Source: Escherichia coli (GTDB taxonomy: Bacteria > Pseudomonadota > Gammaproteobacteria > Enterobacterales > Enterobacteriaceae). From it: a stretch of DNA of 64,000 nt. This document shows, one piece after another, positions 12,136 to 40,576 of the stretch. Numbering within the stretch: the first letter of the stretch is position 1; each line of letters begins with the position of its first letter. The notes beneath the pieces are model-generated. The model worked only from the letters and a program-made list of their open reading frames with translations. It had not been told where the DNA came from and made no database searches. Location of the stretch: NCBI RefSeq assembly GCF_051903065.1, contig NZ_CP178438.1, one strand, 5' to 3'. The position numbers were made by a program, and so were the translations under genes.

Positions 12136-12498
12136 GGGGCTGATTCTGGATTCGACGGGATTTGCGAAACCCAAGGTGCATGCCGAGGGGCGGTTGGCCT
12201 CGTAAAAAGCCGCAAAAAATAGTCGCAAACGACGAAAACTACGCTTTAGCAGCTTAATAACCTGCTTAGAGCCCTCTCTCCCTAGCCTCCGCTCTTAGGA
12301 CGGGGATCAAGAGAGGTCAAACCCAAAAGAGATCGCGTGGAAGCCCTGCCTGGGGTTGAAGCGTTAAAACTTAATCAGGCTAGTTTGTTAGTGGCGTGTC
12401 CGTCCGCAGCTGGCAAGCGAATGTAAAGACTGACTAAGCATGTAGTACCGAGGATGTAGGAATTTCGGACGCGGGTTCAACTCCCGCCAGCTCCACCA
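12136..12498 (+). ncRNA. ssrA: tmRNA (SsrA), intact 363 nt
   Basis: Starts GGGGCTGATTCTGGATTCGACGGG, contains the tag-peptide reading frame region and ends ...GGTTCAACTCCCGCCAGCTCCACCA. Confidence 0.95.
12454..12498. repeat. Prophage attachment-site repeat, ssrA-proximal copy (45 bp)
   Basis: ATGTAGGAATTTCGGACGCGGGTTCAACTCCCGCCAGCTCCACCA is repeated exactly at 45935-45979. Confidence 0.9.
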
Positions 12499-12621
12499 AA
12501 TAAATCAAGGGGTTACGTGAAAGCGTAGCCCCTTTTTCTTTGGTAGTGGCGGCAAAATGGCGACAGACTTTTGCGTCCATCTTGCCTGTCGCCATCTTGA
12601 AATCATGCAAAGAGGTTTCAC

Positions 12622-20991: not shown

Positions 20992-21468
20992 ATGATGCCA
21001 GTTAGCCATTATCTCTGCATTTTCTTAAACGTTGGTTTGGGAGAAGGTTCGGCATTACCCGTTGGTGTGCCTGTTCCGTGGCCTTCTGCAATACCGCCTA
21101 CTGGCTGGCTGAAATGTAACGGTGCGGCTTTTTCTGCCGTTGAATATCCTAAACTGGCGAGGGTTTACCCGACAAATAAATTACCTGATTTACGCGGTGA
21201 GTTTATTCGTGGCTGGGATGATGGGCGTGGAGTGGATAGTGGGCGCGCGTTATTATCAACTCAAACAGATGAATTTAAATCACATAGTCATTATTTCGAA
21301 AGAACATGGGCACAAACTGGATTTGATACAACAGGTGGATATTATCTTTTAGCCGCTGATGTTTCTGGCTCAGTAAATCAACAGAGATCCGATAGCACTA
21401 ACTCGGTGGGGGGGAGAGAATCTCGCCCTCGTAATATTGCATTTAACTATATTGTGAGAGCTGTGTAA
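20992..21468 (+). CDS. Alternative tail-fibre C-terminal variable segment (silent orientation)
   Basis: Open frame without its own start context; encodes ...LNVGLGEG... paralleling ...LAYLGLGEA... in H at the crossover site; followed by a tail-fibre assembly gene. Confidence 0.65.
   Translation: MMPVSHYLCIFLNVGLGEGSALPVGVPVPWPSAIPPTGWLKCNGAAFSAVEYPKLARVYPTNKLPDLRGEFIRGWDDGRGVDSGRALLSTQTDEFKSHSHYFERTWAQTGFDTTGGYYLLAADVSGSVNQQRSDSTNSVGGRESRPRNIAFNYIVRAV
21022..21045. repeat. Invertase crossover site (gix/cix-like), invertase-proximal
   Basis: TTCTTAAACGTTGGTTTGGGAGAA; its reverse complement matches 22555-22578 over about 17 nt. Confidence 0.7.
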
Positions 21469-22073
21469 TGGATAATGCTGTATTAAATAGCGAACATATT
21501 GCTACGAAGGCTGGAAATGTTACTGTTTATAACTTTGACGGTGAAACGCGAGAGTATATTTCCCCATCTATTGAATATATTGCCGTTGGTGTCGGTATTC
21601 CGGCATATTCATGTTTAGATGCTCCTGCCACACGTAAAGATGGTTATGCTATTTGCCGTTCTGCAGGCTTAAACTCATGGGAATATATACCAGACCATCG
21701 CAGTGAAATTGTCTATAGCACTGAAACAGGAGAATCAAAAGAAATCACAGCTCTGGGGGATTACCCTGAAAATACAACCATTATCGCCCCATTAACGCCA
21801 TACGATAAATGGGATGGTGAGAAATGGGTGACGGATACCGAGGCACAGCGTAGCGCCGCAGTAGACGCGGCAGAAGCACAGCGCCAGTCGCTGATTGATG
21901 CTGCTATGGCTTCCATTAGCCTGCTTCAACTGAAATTACAGGCCGGACGGAAGCTGACGCAAGCAGAAACAACCCGACTAAACGCCGTGCTGGATTACAT
22001 TGACGCGGTGATGGCAACGGATACCAGCAACGCGCCGGGGGTTATCTGGCCAGTTCCACCTGAGATGGTTTAA
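21468..22073 (+). CDS. Tail-fibre assembly chaperone for the alternative segment
   Basis: 201-aa ORF directly coupled to the alternative fibre segment inside the invertible region. Confidence 0.7.
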   Translation: MDNAVLNSEHIATKAGNVTVYNFDGETREYISPSIEYIAVGVGIPAYSCLDAPATRKDGYAICRSAGLNSWEYIPDHRSEIVYSTETGESKEITALGDYPENTTIIAPLTPYDKWDGEKWVTDTEAQRSAAVDAAEAQRQSLIDAAMASISLLQLKLQAGRKLTQAETTRLNAVLDYIDAVMATDTSNAPGVIWPVPPEMV

Positions 22074-22329
22074 TCTCAATCAGAATGGGTTCGCCCTTCT
22101 CGTTAACAGATATTTCCATTCCTTCAGGGATTTCAGATGCAGTAAAAAACCAGTTATCTTCTGGTAATTCAACAGCCCCGGTCACGTCATGAAGACCGGG
22201 GATTACTTCAGTCAAAGTAACAGGATTAAACAGGCGCACAATAAACTCTCCAAGAAAAAGCACTTGTTGATGGTCTTCCGTCGTACATCTGGCAGCGGAC
22301 ATAAAAACCGGTATTAGTGACCTGGTCAT
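22042..22329 (-). CDS. Possible short or degenerate tail-fibre assembly protein for the expressed orientation
   Basis: ORF downstream of H on the same strand, but overlapping the H 3' end in another frame; true start unclear. Confidence 0.3.
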   Translation of the reverse strand: MTRSLIPVFMSAARCTTEDHQQVLFLGEFIVRLFNPVTLTEVIPGLHDVTGAVELPEDNWFFTASEIPEGMEISVNEKGEPILIEIKPSQVELAR

Positions 22330-23617
22330 CCACGATCATTGAAACGTGAACGTTATTAGATGTGCTCCCGTAATCCGTTCTTATTCTTTCCGCTATGCTG
22401 ATAAAACGTGAAAGCTTAGGTAGCGCAATTGGATAAACGACTTTAGCCAGTCCATTATCATTAGAACCACCCGTTCCAAAGACTTCTATTGCACCATCTG
22501 ACCAGCGTATCCATGCACCATTGGCATTAGCTCCTCGTTGAATGACATATCTGGCTTCTCCCAAACCAAGGTATGCGAGAAGACCAGCTACATCCTTTCC
22601 ACTCAAATTGGTAAGCGTATTGTCCAGCGGTTGTTTACCTGCCAGCGCATTAAGCATTGTCGTGGCAAAGTTCGGATCATTCCCCAGTGCCGCCGCCAGT
22701 TCGTTCAGTGTATCCAGTGCCGCAGGTGCAGAACCCACCATTGCTGCAATCGCTGATTTCACAAAAGCCGTGGTGGCAATCTGTGTATTGTTGACCGACT
22801 GTGCCGCAGTAGGTGCGGTTGGCGTTCCGGTGAGTGCCGGACTCGACAGCGGCGCTTTCAGTGCCAGTGCATTGTTAATGGTGGTACTGAATTTCGGATC
22901 ATTGTTAATGGCTGCGGCTATTTCTTTCAGCGTGTCCAGCGTGGCTGGCGCACCATTAATAAGAGCCGTCAGAGCCGCCTGAACAAACGCGGTGGTCGCA
23001 ATCTGCGTGGTGTTATTCCCTGCTGCTGGCGTTGGCGCTTTGGGTGTCCCGGTAAACGTCGGACTTTCTTTGGGTGCATACTGTGAATGCGGGTCCGGTG
23101 CGGCAAGATGTTTTGCCATCTGATCATCCGCGTACACCTTCAGCTCCAGTGCCTTGTCATCCACATACTTGCGGGTTGCCAGCACTACAGCAGGGTCGAT
23201 TTTCAGGGTGATATTGTCCGTGCTGCTGGTAATCAGCACCATGCGCACGGTCTGAGTGCGCCCGCTACCTTCAGCCAGTTGCGGCTTATAGCTTTCCGGG
23301 CAGTTGCCCACGGCAATCAATGCCTCGGACTCATCAAACAGGCCCACTTCACGAATCCACCAACCGCCCTCGTTTTCAGGGATCACCTGTTCGGCAATAA
23401 TCTGGCTGCTGTTCTGCGGGTCGATATAGAGCATATTCAGCGCAGCCCGGCGTTTCTCATTTACCAGTGCAGTCTGCTTTGAGTCTGGCGTTGGCAATAC
23501 TCCGCCGCCATCGCCGACCGCCATATGGGTAATTTTTAGCGGCACACCGAGCGCGGCGGCGCTGGCAAGTTTCGCCGCGCCAATATCCGTCAGCAGGGTA
23601 TAAAATTTTGTGCTCAT
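22226..23617 (-). CDS. Tail fibre protein H (constant N-terminal part plus currently expressed variable C-terminus)
   Basis: 463-aa ORF with internal roughly 56-aa tandem repeat (NTTQIATTAFV...). Confidence 0.88.
   Translation of the reverse strand: MSTKFYTLLTDIGAAKLASAAALGVPLKITHMAVGDGGGVLPTPDSKQTALVNEKRRAALNMLYIDPQNSSQIIAEQVIPENEGGWWIREVGLFDESEALIAVGNCPESYKPQLAEGSGRTQTVRMVLITSSTDNITLKIDPAVVLATRKYVDDKALELKVYADDQMAKHLAAPDPHSQYAPKESPTFTGTPKAPTPAAGNNTTQIATTAFVQAALTALINGAPATLDTLKEIAAAINNDPKFSTTINNALALKAPLSSPALTGTPTAPTAAQSVNNTQIATTAFVKSAIAAMVGSAPAALDTLNELAAALGNDPNFATTMLNALAGKQPLDNTLTNLSGKDVAGLLAYLGLGEARYVIQRGANANGAWIRWSDGAIEVFGTGGSNDNGLAKVVYPIALPKLSRFISIAERIRTDYGSTSNNVHVSMIVDDQVTNTGFYVRCQMYDGRPSTSAFSWRVYCAPV
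22555..22578. repeat. Invertase crossover site inside tail-fibre gene H
   Basis: TTCTCCCAAACCAAGGTATGCGAG; inverted-repeat partner of 21022-21045; coincides with the LGLGE coding position of H. Confidence 0.65.
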
Positions 23618-34483: not shown

Positions 34484-34511
34484 GGTAAAAGGCCGCTATG
34501 CGGCCTTTTTT
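34484..34511. terminator. Bidirectional terminator between Q and the cargo operon
   Basis: AAAAGGCCGC-TAT-GCGGCCTTTTTT hairpin between convergent gene ends. Confidence 0.8.
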
Positions 34512-35202
34512 AATTTGCGTCATCATTTTTTTTATTTTCTAAAGACTCAATATACCCTCGCAAATTAAATTCTTTATTTTCTCTGAGTTTAGGTCCTTCT
34601 TTAGTATCTGAGCCTCGTTGCTCACGTAAACTTTTATTCAAAGCATCGATCAATTCTTGTCTAGAGATTTCCGTTGCAATTAACCCATCAAAATATCTCT
34701 TCATTTTTCTCGCGCTCTCGGTTACTTTAACAACTTCAAAACCAAGGCAGAGCAAATAAATTAGCGTTGTTATTGTAAATCCAGTATCTACAGAGATAAA
34801 ATAGCCAATATCGAGCACTTTCTTAAGTGATTCCAAGGGCATAACCATGCACAATAAAACCAAAAGCAAACCAGTGCCAAGATATAAATAAGTCATTGAG
34901 TTTCTTTCAATCAGCTTGAAGTACTCATCTCTCTGACCTTCAAAGCTAGCAACAATCTTAGGGGGTGTTTTTTTTGGAAGATCGAGGTCTCGAATTTTAT
35001 CCTGAAGATCTACGTATCTTTTAATAAGTAAACCGACTATGGCAGCAGTGATTAATGAAAGCGTTTTCGATAAAATATTGCCCATTTCCACGAGCACATT
35101 TAATTTATAATTAATCAGATATACTACACTCGATGCCAATACTCCACTTAAAATGGATAATATTATATAAAACGCATATCGCTCCACTCGATTTTTAATC
35201 AT
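34510..35202 (-). CDS. Cargo protein B: predicted 4-TM membrane protein with charged C-terminal tail
   Basis: 230-aa ORF with four hydrophobic helices (approx. residues 9-30, 43-60, 96-114, 133-149); AT-rich; start overlaps the stop of the upstream ORF (ATGA). Confidence 0.7.
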   Translation of the reverse strand: MIKNRVERYAFYIILSILSGVLASSVVYLINYKLNVLVEMGNILSKTLSLITAAIVGLLIKRYVDLQDKIRDLDLPKKTPPKIVASFEGQRDEYFKLIERNSMTYLYLGTGLLLVLLCMVMPLESLKKVLDIGYFISVDTGFTITTLIYLLCLGFEVVKVTESARKMKRYFDGLIATEISRQELIDALNKSLREQRGSDTKEGPKLRENKEFNLRGYIESLENKKNDDAN

Positions 35203-36230
35203 GGATTTATTACCCCATCAGCTAACAATCTGAGCAACCACTCTACCATTTCCTCACAAACGCTATCAATAACAGGCATCCCATTATTATATTCAATATT
35301 GACGGTGTCTTTTATTTGTATTTCGTCATTTCTTAAAATACCTGCGCCTTTTAACTCTATGGTTAATGCTTCATCACGGTTATCGATAAGAGCCTCCGTA
35401 ATTTTCCTTAAAATATTTTGTTCCTCATCATTAGCTTTATATTTATACCCTATAGAAACATCTATCGTTAAATGTTCTCGAGACATGTCAACTGAAACAT
35501 CCTGTGATGCATTGTGTTTACGCAACACATCAACTCTGTGCTCACCGATAAGAGATTTCAATAATTCACTAGCGACATCATCTACTCCATCTCCATAAGA
35601 GGATAGAGGCAGCTTCAAGCTTACATTTTTTACATTGCTACGCATCAGCAATTCATTAGTCAAACGTAAATTTCCTGCTTGTAATATAATAAAGTTATCA
35701 ACATCAACCCTTAGATTATCCTTCAAAATGTAATTAATATAATTTTCAATATCTTTAATTCTAATTGCACGACTTTGCAATATTATTACATGATTTTTGA
35801 CAATCCCGATATATGCAACACTATCTAAATATTCTTTCGGAACACTTCCAGTAAGCTTTAATGCTTCATAAGCCAATCGATTTTTTTTATATTCTGAAAC
35901 ATCAAAAACTGGCACACTATTCCCTGGCTCAATATAAACTATTTCACCAAAAAATATACCATTCCGTTCGAAGGAATCAGATAAAACCATGTGCGCGTGG
36001 CTGCTAACACAAGGGTCACTATCTCCAGTTTCAAGATAGTAAATTCTGTCCTCAACGGTTGGAAACTTGTGATTAACAATTTCGTTCATACGATTCTGCA
36101 AATCACTTGCTAAAAGAGCATCCTTTTTAGGAAGCATTACTGCGTGTCGATAGTGTAACGCTTTAACTTTTGAGGGATTACTGGCCATGAAACATCCATT
36201 ATTAATCTTAGATTTAGTGATATGGAACAA
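35199..36230 (-). CDS. Cargo protein A: soluble protein of unknown function
   Basis: 343-aa ORF (start may be the internal MASNPSK); AT-rich; no motif recognised; translationally coupled to the 4-TM ORF. Confidence 0.7.
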   Translation of the reverse strand: MFHITKSKINNGCFMASNPSKVKALHYRHAVMLPKKDALLASDLQNRMNEIVNHKFPTVEDRIYYLETGDSDPCVSSHAHMVLSDSFERNGIFFGEIVYIEPGNSVPVFDVSEYKKNRLAYEALKLTGSVPKEYLDSVAYIGIVKNHVIILQSRAIRIKDIENYINYILKDNLRVDVDNFIILQAGNLRLTNELLMRSNVKNVSLKLPLSSYGDGVDDVASELLKSLIGEHRVDVLRKHNASQDVSVDMSREHLTIDVSIGYKYKANDEEQNILRKITEALIDNRDEALTIELKGAGILRNDEIQIKDTVNIEYNNGMPVIDSVCEEMVEWLLRLLADGVINP

Positions 36231-36294: not shown

Positions 36295-36498
36295 TGCCCG
36301 CTTTATGTAGTGGTTTTCATGCAGGTGCATGATCTACGCAAAAGCCCGCCAGTTCTGGCGGGCCTTAGCAAAAACGATCCTCAAACGATCATGCGATCTC
36401 ATGCGGCATAGACATGCACTACAGAGCTAACGCCTCGCAAGGGCTCGTTGTTCAACCTTGCTGACGCCAGAAACAAGTTCAGACGCCAGCAACGTTTC

Positions 36499-36804
36499 TT
36501 AATGCAGCCAGCTGTCGTCTTCCCACACCTTCTGCATAATTTTCATCACTTGTTTTCTTTCTTCGTCCAGTTGCAGTCCGGTCAGTTCCACACCGTTAGA
36601 GCTACCTTTGCGGATACGAATTACCGTTTTGGGATACAGGGGGCGCAGATTGCGGTAAAGCTCGGATTCAAGGGCGTCCAGTGTAGACTGGCTAATCTTC
36701 TGCTCTTTATCGATCATTATTTCAATGCGCATAAAAGTCACCTCAGCTGATGACATCCATTGAGCGGTTGTATTCGTGGGTTCTGATTTTTGCCATGAGT
36801 TCAT
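36499..36804 (-). CDS. DinI-family protein (Tum/DinI-like, SOS module)
   Basis: C-terminal part MRIEIMIDKEQK...LDALESELYRNLRPLYP...QKVWEDDSW resembles DinI; true start may be the internal Met. Confidence 0.65.
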   Translation of the reverse strand: MNSWQKSEPTNTTAQWMSSAEVTFMRIEIMIDKEQKISQSTLDALESELYRNLRPLYPKTVIRIRKGSSNGVELTGLQLDEERKQVMKIMQKVWEDDSWLH

Positions 36805-36931
36805 CTGTCAGTTCAGAAACCCACTGCAGAGCCAGCCCCTTCTCTTCATCACTACACTCACTAGCCGCTACAAGCTTAAGAAAAAAATCAATGCGCTGGA
36901 GCTTCAAAGACTCCAAAAAATAGTCCTGCAT
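36743..36931 (-). CDS. Small hypothetical protein, first gene of the LexA-controlled operon
   Basis: 62-aa ORF starting about 43 bp downstream of the LexA box. Confidence 0.45.
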   Translation of the reverse strand: MQDYFLESLKLQRIDFFLKLVAASECSDEEKGLALQWVSELTDELMAKIRTHEYNRSMDVIS

Positions 36932-36973
36932 CTTTCCTCCTATGACACCAAAGCAATACTGTATATATAATCA

Positions 36974-36989
36974 CTGTTTATATTTACAG
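36974..36989. promoter_or_regulatory. LexA (SOS) box in the prophage
   Basis: CTGTTTATATTTACAG, perfect CTGT-N8-ACAG, in an AT-rich promoter-like region upstream of the minus-strand small ORF and DinI-like gene. Confidence 0.75.
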
Positions 36990-37083
36990 TATATAATAAT
37001 CTTACTGATGTAAAACGTTTTTTTACGTTCATCAGCCTGATATGCCTGGTATTATTAAGAGCACGAATTGTTAACCCGCGTAA

Positions 37084-39498
37084 TTAATACAGGTTTCGCC
37101 ACTTATCATCTTCCTGCAAACGCTGGTTCCGATAGAAGATACGCAGGCCTGCTCCTGACGGAATACTGCCACCGCGAAGGAGTAAATCGACCTCTTTCTC
37201 GCTGCCATCAAATCCTCTGGACTTCAGTTCATAGACGAGCTGCTGTCGCTGATGATCTGTAATTCGCTGTTTGTAGTCTTTACGCCGTTTCGGCTTAACC
37301 AGGCGTAACCTTGCTGCCAGTTCCCGGCGCTCTTTTTTGCTCATACTGTGCAGATAATCGTGCAACTCCTTGTCATCCATGCGGGTAATATCCGTTCTGG
37401 TGTCCCCATCAGCTGATTTATCTTTCTCCTGTTGGTTCAAATTTTCAGCAAGGGGACAGTTATTGCCACGAGTCCAAGGGGCGCAAGCGCCCTGGTCGGC
37501 TACCGCCTCCTGAACGTCAACGGCTTTACGAACCATTTTCCACTTCACTGCATGAGTGCAGATCTTGCCCTCTGCAATGGGTGACCAGATGCCATAAATA
37601 CGAATGCCGTGATCGCCATAGGCGGTCGGCTCTTCGTTAATTTCATAAGCAGTTCTGATGAGGTGATATTTGCGGGGAACCAGTACGCCACCCTGCTTCA
37701 TGATGTAAGTGGCAAAACAACCAGCATCAGCAGCAGCCAGGATGGCATCAAGGCGCGGGTTATCCAGTACCGGCGCACCTGCTTTTTTGTCGCCCTGTTG
37801 CCTTGCCGCCTGACCAGCCAGCAATCGCAGTTCACGGTAAGCCTGACGCCCCGGAATACCAAAGAAGCGGAATTGCTGAACACGATGCAGAGACGCCCAG
37901 GCATTAACGTATTCAGCGTTATCACGCAGGGATTTACCCGTTTCCTTGCTGATCTCGCCAGCCAGACCACGCCCGTCAATGTTCTTACTAATGTATTTCG
38001 CAATGTAGCTTGTCGGCGTTCCTTTGCGCGGGTTTATCAGCTCAGACTTAAAGCGTGGCCCCGTGTTATTGCCCAGCTCCTCGCGGTCTTCACGGATGGC
38101 AAACTTACGCAACAATGCAGTAATGGCGCGGCGGTCTTTTTTGCGCATGAAACACAACAGGTGCCAGTGAACTGTGCCGTCATGATGCGGCTCAGCCACC
38201 CGCACGCCATACCAGCGCAACCCGGCTTTGTGCATAGCCTTACGAAATGCAGCAAACATGCCGACCAGATAATCGCTGCTTTGTCTTACTGTCGCGTTGG
38301 TCCAGGTCGGGTTTGGCCTGCCGTTATTTAGCGTGGAATGGAAACGTGACGGACAGGTGATGGTGTAGAAAACGGCGCAGTCACCACGCATTTCCGCGAT
38401 AAGCTCCAGGCCTTTAACACAGGCCATCATCTCGTTGCGGCGATGCGCCGGGTTGCTGCTGCTGGCGTTTACCACATCCTCCATGTTCAGCGTGTCGCCG
38501 TCTTCGTTCACCAGTTCATGAGAACGGAAAAACTCCAGCGACTTACGGCGCTGCTCACGTTTATGCATCACGGCTTCATAGCTAACATAGGGAGATGCTT
38601 TTTTGCTGACCAGGCAGACAGCACGCAACTGCTCTTCCCGCAATTCGCAACGCATCTTCCATAATTTCCGATACCACCAGTCGGCGCACAGCATACGCGC
38701 CAGCGAACCCGGAATGAGTTCATAAGGCACAGGTTTGCGGCGGTTTCTTTTCCGGCGGAGTTGCTCAAACGCAGGCGGTATGACATCCAGTCGCAGGGTT
38801 TCTGCAGCCACCTTTTCCCATGTCTTGCGGATTTCTTCTGGCTTAACATCATCGGAGGCGTACAAATCACCACAAGCGGCATCAAGACACATGCTCATAT
38901 GCGCAGCGACAAGGGTAGACAGGCGTTTCACCTGATCCTGACTCATTTCAGGCAGGATCAGCAGACCGTCCAGCCCCTCATGGCTTGCCATAAAACGAAA
39001 AGATGCAGATAGCTGGCTGTCGCGTACATGCTCCAGTCGTTCCAGACATGGCTTAATCGTCTCACGCAAATAGCGGGAATAAGCCTTTGGCCTGCCCATG
39101 CTGCTGAAATATTCAATACGTTGCATCAGCGGCTTGCTGATATGGGAAGGCTGGGCGTTGACGTCAGCCAGAATGACCATGTCTGGATTAAAACGCTGCT
39201 GCTCATGCGCCATCTTTGCCCGGCTAATGAGCTTATCCTGCTCCATTTCGCGTTGGACAGGATCACGGGATTCATTAAAGAAATAATGCTCCCAGACCTG
39301 ATCACTCAGTGCCTCGCGGCGCAGTTGTTCCTGCTCGTTATCGGTAGCGTACAGAGTGATCAGGTTTGAAAGCGCAGAAACCGGCGCAACTTCCGCCGGG
39401 TCCAGATAAGGGTTAATGGCCTTTTTCGGGCTGTTCCATGAGAACGCTGCGGCAGCCTCGTTAAAGCCGCAGCAGTTGTTCATATCGGCATGACTCAT
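37084..39498 (-). CDS. Replication initiation endonuclease A (rolling-circle, HUH-type)
   Basis: 804-aa ORF with HxH motif (GTVHWHLL); P2 gene A position. Confidence 0.88.
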
Positions 39499-40352
39499 GC
39501 ACGTACTCCGTACACGGCAGAACTATCCACGCCACGCGAATAATCAAATCCCACCCAGCAGCGCGGCCCGGAAACAGCAATGATTTCTGTTGCTGATTTA
39601 CCCTCGCCAGCTGCCACACCGATGCTGCGTTTTACCTTGATATAGTGGTGAATAAAATTGCGATACAGCGAACGGATCAGGGATGTGTCACTGTTAGAAA
39701 CAATGACCGGATGTCCTTCTGATGACCGATGTTCAAGAACGGATGCCAGGTGATACTGATCATCTTCAGTGAAACCATCAGTGTGATAGCCGGAAAACGT
39801 ACCGTCATACGGCGGATCGCAATACACCACATCCCCCGCCTTCAACATCGCCAGCGTTTCATCAAAGCTGGCGCAGATAAACGTTGCTCGCTGGGCTTTT
39901 TCTGCAAATGCGCGAATTTCTTTTTCAGGGAAATACGGATTTTTATAATTACCGTAGGGAATGTTGAAATGCCCGCTCTTGTTATAGCGACATAAACCAC
40001 GGTAACCGTGACGATTGAGATACAGGAAATATACCGCTTTCATGAAATCAGTAATTTCAGTTGAGTAATTAAACTCCTGCCTTATGTTGTAATAAGCCAC
40101 CTCCCTGTTTGCGATCTCAAATAAAACTCTGGCGCGAGATATAAACGATTCACAATCAGCAGCAACCTTTTTATAGAGGTTGATTAAATCAGGATTAATA
40201 TCCGCAACAAGATAGCTGGGGTACTCCGTCTCCATCATCACTGCACAGGAACCCGCGAAAGGTTCAACCAGTCGCGGGCCAGCAGGAAGGTGTTTTTTCA
40301 GTTCGGACATAATTGCGGTTTTATTTCCCGCCCATTTCAGGATGGTGCTCAT
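39495..40352 (-). CDS. DNA adenine methyltransferase (Dam-like orphan MTase)
   Basis: KWAGNK and DPPY motifs; stop overlaps the A start. Confidence 0.85.
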
Positions 40353-40576
40353 ACAGCACCTCCGTTGTAATGTTTGCCTTTCAGCTCTGCGATTTCCTGA
40401 CAGGTAATGCAAAGCTGCACTCCAGGAATGGCGCGGCGGCGTGCTGGCGGAATTGGCACTTCACATTCAATGCAAAGCACGCGAGACACGCCCGGTGTTT
40501 TGGCACGGGCAGCACGGATATGGCGCTGGCGTTCTTCTTCAACGCGCTGCTGTACGAGATCCATTGCATCAGCCAT
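40349..40576 (-). CDS. TraR/DksA-family C4 zinc-finger protein
   Basis: 75-aa ORF with CIECEVPIP...CITCQ four-Cys motif. Confidence 0.7.
   Translation of the reverse strand: MADAMDLVQQRVEEERQRHIRAARAKTPGVSRVLCIECEVPIPPARRRAIPGVQLCITCQEIAELKGKHYNGGAV

What the first reader, a model, noticed from the sequence alone, without database searches (positions are those of the whole stretch)
39495..40352. Prophage-encoded orphan Dam-type methyltransferase coupled to replication gene A
The ORF has the DPPY catalytic motif and KWAGNK AdoMet-region motif, and its stop overlaps the start of gene A, implying co-expression during replication. A phage orphan adenine methylase can protect against host restriction or alter host gene expression in lysogens.
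Basis: partly seen in the sequence, partly recalled or inferred. Interest (0 to 1): 0.4.

Follow-up and report, generated by a model that had tools for sequence, protein, structure and literature searches.

The report
Known prophage Dam methylase before replication gene
This is an ordinary, already-annotated Dam-type DNA adenine methylase of a Fels-2/186-like prophage of E. coli, made with the phage replication protein during lytic growth; relatives that carry it keep normal numbers of GATC sites, while relatives that lack it have purged them.

Summary
A 285-aa ORF on the minus strand (40352 to 39495) has DPPY and KWAGNK, and its stop overlaps the gene A start (ATGA).

It is a Dam-family methylase: PF02086 at 1e-75, and TIGR00571 at 318 bits against a cut-off of 115. 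It is 47% identical to E. coli Dam, with the catalytic, AdoMet-binding and main GATC-reading residues conserved. It is under purifying selection (dN/dS 0.15).

It is not new. The exact protein is in NCBI. The DNA is 97-98% identical to annotated dam genes of Felsduovirus/Elveevirus phages, and it occurs in 1,238 of 5,426 complete E. coli genomes.

The gene sits in a 33.5-kb prophage at ssrA, inside the early lytic operon that CI represses in phage 186. E. coli makes its own GATC Dam (established knowledge). Reprogramming of the lysogen is therefore unlikely.

One useful new result came out. In 12 Peduoviridae genomes, the six with dam have host-like GATC content (O/E 0.72-0.90). The six without it are GATC-depleted (0.12-0.48).

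This suggests the enzyme tops up methylation of replicating phage DNA and so removes the cost of unmethylated GATC sites.

The parts
39495..40352 (-). dam: 285-aa Dam-family N6-adenine DNA methyltransferase (stop codon included)
   Evidence: ORF and translation; PF02086 1.2e-75; TIGR00571 318 bits, above cut-off; 47% identity to E. coli Dam structures; 97-98% nt identity to annotated phage dam genes
40320..40337 (-). KWAGNK, aa 6-11 (N-terminal motif; K6 corresponds to EcoDam K9, W7 to W10, K11 to K14)
   Evidence: Alignment to EcoDam; invariant or nearly invariant in 16 family members
40245..40265 (-). EPFAGSC, aa 30-36: AdoMet-binding motif I (FxGxG with the third G replaced by C)
39945..40004 (-). 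DNA-recognition loop, aa 117-136 (YRGLCRYN...NIPYGNY). Y117, L120, R122, P132 and Y136 correspond to EcoDam Y119, L122, R124, P134 and Y138. R118 replaces N120 and N135 replaces R137.
   Evidence: mapping; residue roles from PMC4417163; invariance in the family
39807..39818 (-). DPPY catalytic motif IV, aa 179-182
   Evidence: Sequence, alignment, invariant in the family
39495..39498 (-). ATGA overlap: dam stop TGA and gene A start ATG
   Evidence: The same 4-bp overlap is annotated in RE-2010, Cartapus, KP12, 4LV2017 and six of the eight E. coli prophages examined. Of the other two, LS45 has a 10-bp overlap and XYEH3783 has an extra ORF between dam and A.
40349..40352 (-). ATGA overlap: stop of the TraR/DksA-type gene and dam start; GGAGG at 40359-40363
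37084..39498 (-). Gene A: replication endonuclease (nicks at ori), 804 aa
   Evidence: PF05840 2.4e-126; annotated gpA homologs
40349..40576 (-). TraR/DksA-type C4 zinc-finger gene, 75 aa, immediately upstream in the operon
   Evidence: PF01258, TIGR02419
42253..42281 (-). Candidate early lytic promoter (pR-like): TTGACG, 17 nt, TAGTAT, with a GATC at 42260-42263 directly before the -10 hexamer. This is the only promoter-like site found upstream of dam on its strand.
   Evidence: scan; position equivalent to the annotated pR of phage 186; comparison across relatives
12454..12499 (+). Prophage att repeat, left copy (3' end of the tmRNA gene ssrA)
   Evidence: 46-bp exact direct repeat; tmRNA at 12136-12498
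45935..45980 (+). Prophage att repeat, right copy

Best explanation
The ORF encodes an active, orphan, GATC-specific Dam-type N6-adenine DNA methyltransferase. It is a standard gene of the early lytic operon of Fels-2/186-like (Peduoviridae) prophages.

It is transcribed from the CI-repressed early promoter together with apl, cII, fil, a TraR-like gene and the replication endonuclease A. It is translationally chained to its neighbours by ATGA overlaps. The enzyme therefore appears only on infection or induction, at the same time as the protein that starts phage DNA replication.

Its substrate is the phage's own replicating DNA. Host Dam cannot keep up with a burst of phage replication, so the phage enzyme tops up GATC methylation. 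That prevents the harm done to un- or hemi-methylated GATC sites by host functions: most plausibly MutH-dependent cleavage, possibly SeqA binding or GATC-cutting restriction enzymes.

Shown here: the enzyme family, intact motifs, purifying selection, operon position, gene overlaps, and the association between carrying dam and keeping GATC sites.

Inferred: GATC specificity (from conserved contact residues), repression in the lysogen (by homology to 186), and the physiological benefit and the nuclease involved.
For: Family and integrity:
- PF02086 and TIGR00571 score above their cut-offs.
- The protein is 47% identical to EcoDam. The equivalents of K9, W10, K14, F35, G37, D54, R95, Y119, L122, R124, N126, N132, P134, Y138 and DPPY are conserved.
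- PMC4417163 assigns roles to several of these: R124 (fourth base pair), L122/P134, Y119 (intercalation), K9/Y138 (first base pair).
- The tested residues that are conserved here are also invariant in 16 sequences down to 71% identity. dN/dS is 0.145 against RE-2010.

Operon:
- Same-strand genes run from apl to A with overlaps. No promoter-like site lies between 42250 and dam.
- The 186 record annotates pR as repressed by CI and Apl. It also notes that translation to the end of the gene preceding A is needed for A translation.
- Synteny traR-dam-A holds in every relative examined.
- dam is in 1,238 E. coli genomes and this gene A lineage in 1,288.

Acts on phage DNA at GATC (12 Peduoviridae genomes):
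- The six with dam (dam lineages 100%, 72%, 42% and 37% identical) have GATC O/E 0.72-0.90, like the host flanks (0.77).
- The six without dam have O/E 0.12-0.48, and GATC is the most depleted palindromic 4-mer in five of them.
- In seven shared core genes the figures are 3.8-6.1 against 0.24-2.55 GATC/kb, with complete separation.

Background:
- GATC counter-selection in enterobacteriophages is attributed to MutH acting on unmethylated sites, and phage DNA is under-methylated (PMC5014478).
- Lambda DNA is only about 50% Dam-methylated because replication outruns the host enzyme (PMC10644984).
Against: - No methylation or expression data exist for this gene.
- The dam/GATC association rests on 12 genomes from about eight genera. 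It is not corrected for phylogeny, and the direction of causation is open.
- Two dam-less genomes are only moderately depleted (P88 at 0.48, Kp4887-2 at 0.35).
- Engineered phiX174 with 20 GATC sites showed no obvious growth defect under standard conditions (PMC5014478). T5-like phages keep many GATC sites completely unmethylated (PMC10644984). So unmethylated GATC is not always costly.
- Two DNA-contacting positions differ from EcoDam (N120 to R, R137 to N). The protein also scores below the cut-off of the host-Dam equivalog model (287 against 441). Altered or relaxed specificity is therefore not excluded.
- The promoter scan is a weak negative. A low constitutive level in lysogens cannot be ruled out.
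Confidence: 0.6

Rival explanations
1. Classical anti-restriction. The phage pre-methylates its progeny DNA so that it survives methylation-sensitive, GATC-cutting restriction enzymes (MboI/DpnII type) in the next host.
For: It is an orphan methylase on a mobile element. Near-identical genes are found in phages of Klebsiella, Salmonella, Escherichia and Yersinia, so the phage group meets varied hosts. The GATC census fits equally well if the selective agent is a restriction enzyme rather than MutH. A review notes that mobile-element orphan methylases protect DNA to be exported (PMC12707154).
Against: All listed hosts are enterics that, to my knowledge, have their own Dam. GATC-cutting, methylation-sensitive systems are, to my knowledge, not typical of them. 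Full methylation would also sensitise the DNA to DpnI-type methyl-dependent enzymes. No data here distinguish this nuclease from MutH.
Confidence: 0.2
2. Self-regulation. Methylation of particular GATC sites on the phage, notably the one directly before the -10 hexamer of the early promoter, tunes early transcription or repressor binding. The phage enzyme sets that state during lytic growth.
For: A GATC occupies spacer positions 13-16 of the pR-like promoter in six of nine switch types, although the rest of the spacer has diverged. This includes PSP3, whose whole genome has only 25 GATC sites. A review reports that SopEPhi excision is favoured by Dam methylation (PMC7380047).
Against: The promoter GATC does not track phage-borne dam. 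SopEPhi (dam-plus) has GATT and 4LV2017 (dam-plus) has GAAC, while PSP3 (dam-less) has GATC. Phage 186 lacks it. Host Dam would methylate a single site anyway. No experiment links this site to promoter activity.
Confidence: 0.12
3. Lysogenic conversion. The enzyme is made in lysogens and changes host gene expression epigenetically.
For: There is a precedent in another host: the prophage Dam-like methylase PamA changes adhesion and biofilm in S. aureus (PMC13076061).
Against: The gene lies inside the operon that CI represses in 186 and has no promoter-like site of its own. E. coli already methylates GATC (established knowledge) and the enzyme keeps the GATC-reading residues. As far as I know, the PamA precedent is in a host that lacks Dam (not checked here). 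Cargo genes in these phages sit at other hotspots, not in the early operon.
Confidence: 0.05
4. The reading frame matters mainly as a translational coupler that delivers ribosomes to the gene A start (as orf84 does in 186). The methylase activity is dispensable.
For: The 186 record says that translation to the end of the preceding ORF is needed for A translation. That slot holds unrelated 'not essential' genes in 186, P2 and PSP3.
Against: Coupling alone would not keep the catalytic and DNA-contact residues invariant or give dN/dS 0.145. It also does not explain the GATC census. In one E. coli prophage another ORF sits between dam and A, yet dam is retained. The two roles are compatible, and coupling is part of the main explanation.
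Confidence: 0.03

Closest known systems
Dam of Fels-2-type phages and prophages (Felsduovirus/Elveevirus: RE-2010 gp10, Cartapus gp42, KP12, 4LV2017, SopEPhi orf8) and the 'retron Ec67 DNA adenine methylase' of the 186-related prophage that carries retron Ec67
   Same: It is the same gene. It is 97-98% identical in DNA to RE-2010, Cartapus and KP12, with the same 858-bp length and the same traR-dam-A order and overlaps. SopEPhi orf8 is 72% identical and is annotated 'similar to retron EC67 DNA adenine methylase'. One member of its 90% cluster carries that name. The Ec67 element is described as a 34-kb 186-related prophage with a Dam gene (PMC7826664, citing Hsu et al. 1990 and Dodd & Egan 1996).
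   Different: Nothing of substance. There are eight amino-acid differences from RE-2010. The immunity region and cargo genes of this prophage differ from those phages.
E. coli chromosomal Dam (EcoDam; PDB 2G1P, 2ORE, 4GOL)
   Same: D12-class alpha-group fold by full-length alignment and 47% identity. DPPY, motif I, D54 and the GATC-contact residues K9, Y119, L122, R124, P134 and Y138 are all conserved.
   Different: It is not the host ortholog: it scores 287 bits against the 441-bit cut-off of the equivalog model NF008152. N120 becomes R and R137 becomes N; G39 becomes C (nearly invariant in the phage family). There is a C-terminal extension of about 22 residues. It is expressed from a phage lytic operon, not constitutively.
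Dam enzymes of other phages (T4 Dam, PDB 1YFJ/1Q0S; P1 Dam)
   Same: These are phage-encoded orphan GATC methylases made during lytic growth. T4 Dam is a detectable homolog (E = 8e-18). That T4 encodes its own Dam is noted in PMC10644984.
   Different: They are much more distant in sequence. The requirement of P1 Dam for pac-site cutting is my own knowledge, and no such packaging role is indicated here (this group uses cos-type ends, as annotated for P2, 186 and PSP3).
orf84 of phage 186 (the gene occupying the same slot before A)
   Same: It lies immediately upstream of A with overlapping stop and start. The 186 record states that translation to its end appears necessary for translation of A.
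   Different: It is an unrelated protein (PAPS-reductase-like) marked 'not essential'. Phage 186 has no dam and is strongly GATC-depleted.
PamA, the prophage Dam-like methylase of S. aureus
   Same: It is a prophage-borne Dam-like orphan methylase (PMC13076061).
   Different: It acts in the lysogen and changes the host phenotype. As far as I know that host has no Dam of its own (not checked here). In this case the host already methylates GATC and the gene is in a repressed lytic operon.

Membership tests
D12-class N6-adenine DNA methyltransferase (Pfam PF02086) / Dam family (TIGR00571) | Full-length match to the family models above their curated cut-offs | tested here: met
   PF02086: 254.9 bits against 22, profile positions 1-253 of 253. 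TIGR00571: 318.2 bits against 114.85, positions 1-266 of 267.
D12-class N6-adenine DNA methyltransferase (Pfam PF02086) / Dam family (TIGR00571) | Catalytic motif IV (D/N)PP(Y/F) | tested here: met
   DPPY at aa 179-182, aligned to EcoDam D181-Y184; invariant in 16 sequences.
D12-class N6-adenine DNA methyltransferase (Pfam PF02086) / Dam family (TIGR00571) | AdoMet-binding elements: N-terminal KWAGxK, motif I FxGxG, and the acidic residue of motif II | tested here: met
   K6, W7 and K11; F32 and G34 (the third Gly is Cys36); D51 corresponds to EcoDam D54. C36 is nearly invariant in the phage family.
GATC-specific Dam (works like EcoDam) | Residues that read the GATC base pairs in EcoDam: K9, Y119, L122, R124, P134, Y138 | tested here: met
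   All six are conserved and invariant in the family. Roles are from PMC4417163. Two further DNA-contact positions differ (N120 to R, R137 to N).
GATC-specific Dam (works like EcoDam) | Demonstrated N6-methylation of the adenine in GATC | not testable with these tools
   Needs expression in a dam-minus host with a DpnI/MboI digest, or SMRT/nanopore sequencing. There is indirect support only: dam-carrying relatives are not GATC-depleted.
Chromosomal Dam ortholog (NCBIfam equivalog NF008152) | Score at or above the equivalog cut-off | tested here: not met
   287.2 bits against a cut-off of 441. It is a phage paralog, not the host housekeeping Dam.
Orphan methyltransferase (no cognate endonuclease) | No restriction endonuclease gene adjacent or elsewhere in the element | tested here: met
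   The neighbours are a TraR-like gene and gene A. The best PADLOC model is the orphan methyltransferase model, 1e-110. The prophage cargo ORFs tested have no endonuclease, Pfam or PADLOC match.
Type II restriction-modification system | Methylase paired with an endonuclease of the same specificity | tested here: not met
   No partner was found. The same orphan arrangement is seen in all relatives examined.
Early lytic operon gene of a 186/Fels-2-like (Peduoviridae) prophage | Synteny int-cI / apl-cII-fil-...-traR-[slot]-A-tumA/dinI, with att repeats at a tRNA-like gene | tested here: met
   Pfam identifies CI, integrase, CII, Fil, DUF5347, DUF2732, TraR and GPA. The 46-bp att repeat lies at ssrA. 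The gene order matches RE-2010, Cartapus, SopEPhi and 186.
Early lytic operon gene of a 186/Fels-2-like (Peduoviridae) prophage | Silent in the lysogen (repressed by CI), expressed on induction | not testable with these tools
   Inferred from the 186 annotation of pR and from the absence of a nearer promoter-like site. It needs RNA-seq of lysogen versus induced culture.

The most novel reading that the evidence does not exclude
Within one phage family (Peduoviridae of Dam-positive enterics) there are two alternative solutions to the same problem: either purge GATC from the genome (P2, 186, PSP3) or carry a dam gene in the slot before the replication gene and keep host-like GATC content. Dam would then be the factor that removes GATC counter-selection, most likely by preventing MutH attack on under-methylated replicating DNA. 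Its placement and translational chaining to gene A would match enzyme supply to replication. I did not find this dam/GATC dichotomy for P2-like phages in the papers I could search, but the general idea of GATC counter-selection dates from 1984-1991.
Probability: 0.5. Interest if true: 0.4.

Novelty: already known. Interest (0 to 1): 0.22.

Why it matters
The gene itself matters little: it is a routine, widely annotated prophage gene, and a scan should not rank it highly.

Three points are worth keeping.
- A prophage methylase is not automatically a lysogenic-conversion or anti-restriction factor. Operon position and the host's own methylation repertoire must be checked first.
- The comparison of dam-plus and dam-minus relatives gives a cheap genomic read-out that such an enzyme is active on the phage's own DNA at GATC.
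- It offers a natural system, with closely related phages, for testing the old hypothesis that mismatch-repair nuclease MutH drives GATC avoidance in phages.

Tried and rejected
1. The longer TTG start at 40412 (305 aa). Rejected: homolog lengths are mostly 282-286 aa, reference annotation is 858 bp, and GGAGG precedes the ATG.
2. A partner endonuclease. None is adjacent. The tested cargo ORFs (34510-36230, 20995-23617) have no PADLOC match, and 34510-36230 has no Pfam match.
3. An internal promoter that could express dam in lysogens. None was found on the minus strand between dam and the cI/apl switch. This is only a weak negative.
4. GATC clustering as a sign of a regulatory target. The only cluster (four sites at 36331-36395) flanks a terminator-like hairpin downstream of the dinI-like gene and is not clearly beyond chance. 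There is no cluster in gene A.
5. The idea that the conserved GATC in the early promoter is linked to phage-borne dam. Rejected: SopEPhi and 4LV2017 (dam-plus) lack it, and PSP3 (dam-less) has it.
6. A 186 tM1-like terminator just inside gene A. A GC-rich hairpin exists at 39446-39475, but the region's folding energy is not unusual (z = -1.5) and no T-run follows.
7. Reading Hsu et al. 1990 (PMC55184) for the experimental test of the Ec67-element Dam. The paper is not held.
8. Literature on a specific role for Dam in P2-like phages. Seven of the nine full-text searches targeted this and found only annotations, no functional study.
9. I could not align T4 Dam or DpnM at the N120 position, because only the top five alignments are printed and all five are EcoDam variants.
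Full report
**Observation.** The ORF exists at the stated coordinates but on the minus strand. Its ATG is at 40352 and its TGA ends at 39495, giving 285 aa. DPPY is at residues 179-182 and KWAGNK at residues 6-11. The stop overlaps the ATG of an 804-aa gene A homolog in the sequence ATGA (39495-39498). The start overlaps the stop of an upstream TraR/DksA-type zinc-finger gene in the same way (40349-40352), and GGAGG lies 6 nt upstream. A longer TTG-initiated version listed mechanically (305 aa) is not credible, because homologs are almost all 282-286 aa and reference phages annotate 858 bp.

**What it is.** The protein matches Pfam PF02086 over the whole domain (E = 1.2e-75). It matches the Dam family model TIGR00571 at 318 bits against a cut-off of 115. 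It falls below the cut-off of the model for the chromosomal Dam ortholog (287 against 441).

- It aligns end to end with solved E. coli Dam structures (E = 4e-73, 47% identity).
- Mapped onto EcoDam numbering, these residues are conserved: the catalytic DPPY; F35 and G37 of motif I; D54; and the residues that read GATC, namely K9, Y119, L122, R124, P134 and Y138. Their roles are taken from Horton et al. 2015 (PMC4417163).
- Three positions differ: N120 to R, R137 to N, G39 to C.
- In an alignment of 16 sequences down to 71% identity, the catalytic and base-reading residues are invariant. R118 is a family feature, and the family has a poorly conserved C-terminal extension of about 22 residues that host Dam lacks.
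- Against the Salmonella phage RE-2010 ortholog, dN/dS is 0.145.
- PADLOC's best model is its orphan-methyltransferase model, and no endonuclease gene is nearby.

**Where it is.**
- The flanks of the window are E. coli chromosome.
- A 46-bp exact direct repeat (12454-12499, the 3' end of the tmRNA gene, and 45935-45980) bounds a 33.5-kb P2/186-like prophage.
- The arm around the finding reads int, cI / apl, cII, fil, DUF5347, DUF2732, traR-like, dam, A, then a tumA-like ORF and a dinI-like gene.
- That is the order in RE-2010, Cartapus, KP12, 4LV2017 and SopEPhi, and in eight E. coli prophages sampled across the identity range.

**How common it is.**
- The DNA is 97-98% identical to genes already annotated as Dam in Klebsiella, Escherichia and Salmonella phages.
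- The exact protein is in NCBI as WP_439691011.1.
- Its 90% cluster has 4,038 member sequences, one of them named 'retron EC67 DNA adenine methylase'.
- SopEPhi orf8 is annotated the same way.
- The gene is present in 1,238 of 5,426 complete E. coli genomes, and this gene A lineage is present in 1,288.
- A paper on a Klebsiella Fels-2-like prophage lists the same traR-dam-A block. It recalls that the 186-related prophage carrying retron Ec67 was reported in 1990 to encode a Dam methylase (PMC7826664). I could not read the 1990 paper itself.

**When it is made.**
- Every gene from apl to A is on one strand with short gaps or overlaps.
- The only promoter-like site upstream of dam on that strand is at the cI/apl switch (42281-42253).
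- The curated record of phage 186, which has the same switch design, annotates this promoter (pR) as driving the early lytic operon and as repressed by CI and Apl.
- The same record notes that translation to the end of the ORF preceding A 'appears necessary for translation of A protein', and that a terminator inside A acts when A is not translated.
- 186, P2 and PSP3 have no dam. The slot holds other small genes, marked non-essential in the 186 record.
- In one E. coli prophage an extra ORF sits between dam and A. In LS45 and SopEPhi the overlap is 10 bp.

**What it probably does.** E. coli has its own GATC Dam (established knowledge). A GATC methylase in a repressed lytic operon is therefore unlikely to change the lysogen's methylome or gene expression.

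The informative result came from a control. While checking phage 186, I saw that it has almost no GATC. A census of 12 Peduoviridae genomes from Dam-positive enteric hosts followed, with dam detected blind by tblastn. It gives two non-overlapping groups.

| Group | Genome | GATC sites | O/E |
|---|---|---|---|
| dam present | this prophage | 117 | 0.75 |
| dam present | RE-2010 | 116 | 0.79 |
| dam present | SopEPhi | 120 | 0.81 |
| dam present | Kp4850-2 | 114 | 0.72 |
| dam present | Kp4861-1 | 165 | 0.90 |
| dam present | Kp4874-2 | 167 | 0.89 |
| dam absent | 186 (first 28.5 kb of 30.6) | 11 | 0.12 |
| dam absent | P2_AC1 | 15 | 0.12 |
| dam absent | P2 | 25 | 0.20 |
| dam absent | PSP3 | 25 | 0.22 |
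| dam absent | Kp4887-2 | 52 | 0.35 |
| dam absent | P88 | 75 | 0.48 |

- The dam genes in the first group are 100% to 37% identical to this one. Their GATC content is like the host flanks in the window (0.77).
- In the second group, GATC is the most depleted palindromic 4-mer in five of the six genomes.
- The split holds inside seven shared core genes: 3.8-6.1 against 0.24-2.55 GATC/kb. The separation is complete, with Mann-Whitney p = 0.002, not corrected for phylogeny.

GATC avoidance in enterobacteriophages is a classical observation. It is attributed to MutH acting on unmethylated sites in phage DNA that host Dam methylates poorly (McClelland 1984 and Deschavanne & Radman 1991, as cited in PMC5014478). 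Lambda DNA is only about half methylated because replication outruns host Dam (PMC10644984).

The simplest reading is that the phage enzyme, made together with the replication initiator, keeps replicating phage DNA methylated at GATC. That removes the cost that forces dam-less relatives to purge the site. This also argues independently that the enzyme is active and GATC-specific. It remains a correlation in a small sample, and two dam-less genomes are only moderately depleted.

**Rivals.**
- *Anti-restriction.* Protection against GATC-cutting restriction enzymes in other hosts would produce the same genomic signature. It differs only in the nuclease involved, and I cannot separate the two here.
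- *Self-regulation.* A role through the GATC that sits directly before the -10 hexamer of the early promoter is suggested by its presence in six of nine switch types, including the GATC-poor PSP3. However, it does not track phage-borne dam (SopEPhi and 4LV2017 lack it, PSP3 has it), so it is more likely a target of host Dam, if it is functional at all.
- *Lysogenic conversion.* This is disfavoured by operon position and by redundancy with host Dam. The S. aureus PamA precedent (PMC13076061) is, as far as I know, in a host without Dam; I did not check that here.
- *Pure coupler.* A purely structural role as a translational coupler is contradicted by purifying selection on the catalytic residues.

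**Verdict.** The one result of some wider interest is the dam/GATC-content dichotomy among P2-like phages, which makes an old hypothesis about GATC counter-selection testable in closely related phages.

Noticed in passing
window 43955-45712 (minus strand): A 585-aa gene lies between the integrase and the right att repeat. It matches the PADLOC dCTP-deaminase defence model (E = 2e-146) and is annotated 'anti-phage dCTP deaminase' in matching E. coli genomes. It is a defence cargo gene at the int-att hotspot; RE-2010 and Cartapus carry different genes there.
   Followed up: partly
window 34510-36230 (minus strand): Two cargo ORFs (230 aa, with predicted hydrophobic stretches; 343 aa, phrog_3482 of unknown function) lie between the portal gene end and the dinI-like gene. 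They have no Pfam or PADLOC match. In relatives the same hotspot holds an AIPR protein, SIR2 plus an ATP-binding protein, HNH plus PIN, S8 peptidase plus AAA ATPase, an HsdR-like protein, or a GTP pyrophosphokinase. These may therefore be an undescribed defence pair.
   Followed up: partly
window 36499-37000 (minus strand): Two LexA-box-like CTGT...ACAG sequences (about 36950-37000) precede a 62-aa ORF (36743-36931) and a dinI-like gene (inside 36499-36804). This matches the split tumA/tumB arrangement annotated in PSP3 and described for Fels-2 (PMC3121763), so it is probably the SOS-inducible antirepressor module.
   Followed up: partly
window 42253-42281; also L001, L002, L003, L006-L012, L022: A GATC occupies the last positions of the 17-nt spacer of the pR-like early promoter, directly before the -10 hexamer, in six of nine switch types whose remaining spacer sequence has diverged. 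PSP3, which has only 25 GATC in its genome, is among the six. It is absent in 186, SopEPhi (GATT) and 4LV2017 (GAAC). The promoter may be Dam-sensitive.
   Followed up: partly
window 36331-36395: Four GATC sites lie within 65 bp, flanking a terminator-like hairpin (GGCCCGCCAGAACTGGCGGGCTTTTG) downstream of the dinI-like gene. This is the only GATC cluster in the prophage and is not clearly beyond chance.
   Followed up: no
window 39446-39475 (minus strand, codons 9-18 of gene A): A GC-rich hairpin lies just inside gene A, recalling the 186 terminator tM1 that is said to act when A is not translated. The folding energy of the region is not unusual (z = -1.5) and no T-run follows.
   Followed up: partly
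window 39495-39563 (dam residues 264-285): A family-specific C-terminal extension of about 22 residues is absent from host Dam. It has a loosely conserved W-x-G-x-D...G-x-D pattern and is less constrained than the rest: three of the eight differences from RE-2010 fall here. Its function is unknown.
   Followed up: partly
proteins P0008, P0009, P0072: Some E. coli database proteins of 456-496 aa combine the Dam domain with PF05954 (phage late control gene D). They are probably products of deletions in decaying prophages that fuse dam to gene D.
   Followed up: no
hit H92, Salmonella phage SI7: In this P2-like phage, a gene annotated as DNA cytosine methyltransferase lies under or next to the replication endonuclease match. 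The region next to gene A may therefore hold methylases of other types.
   Followed up: no
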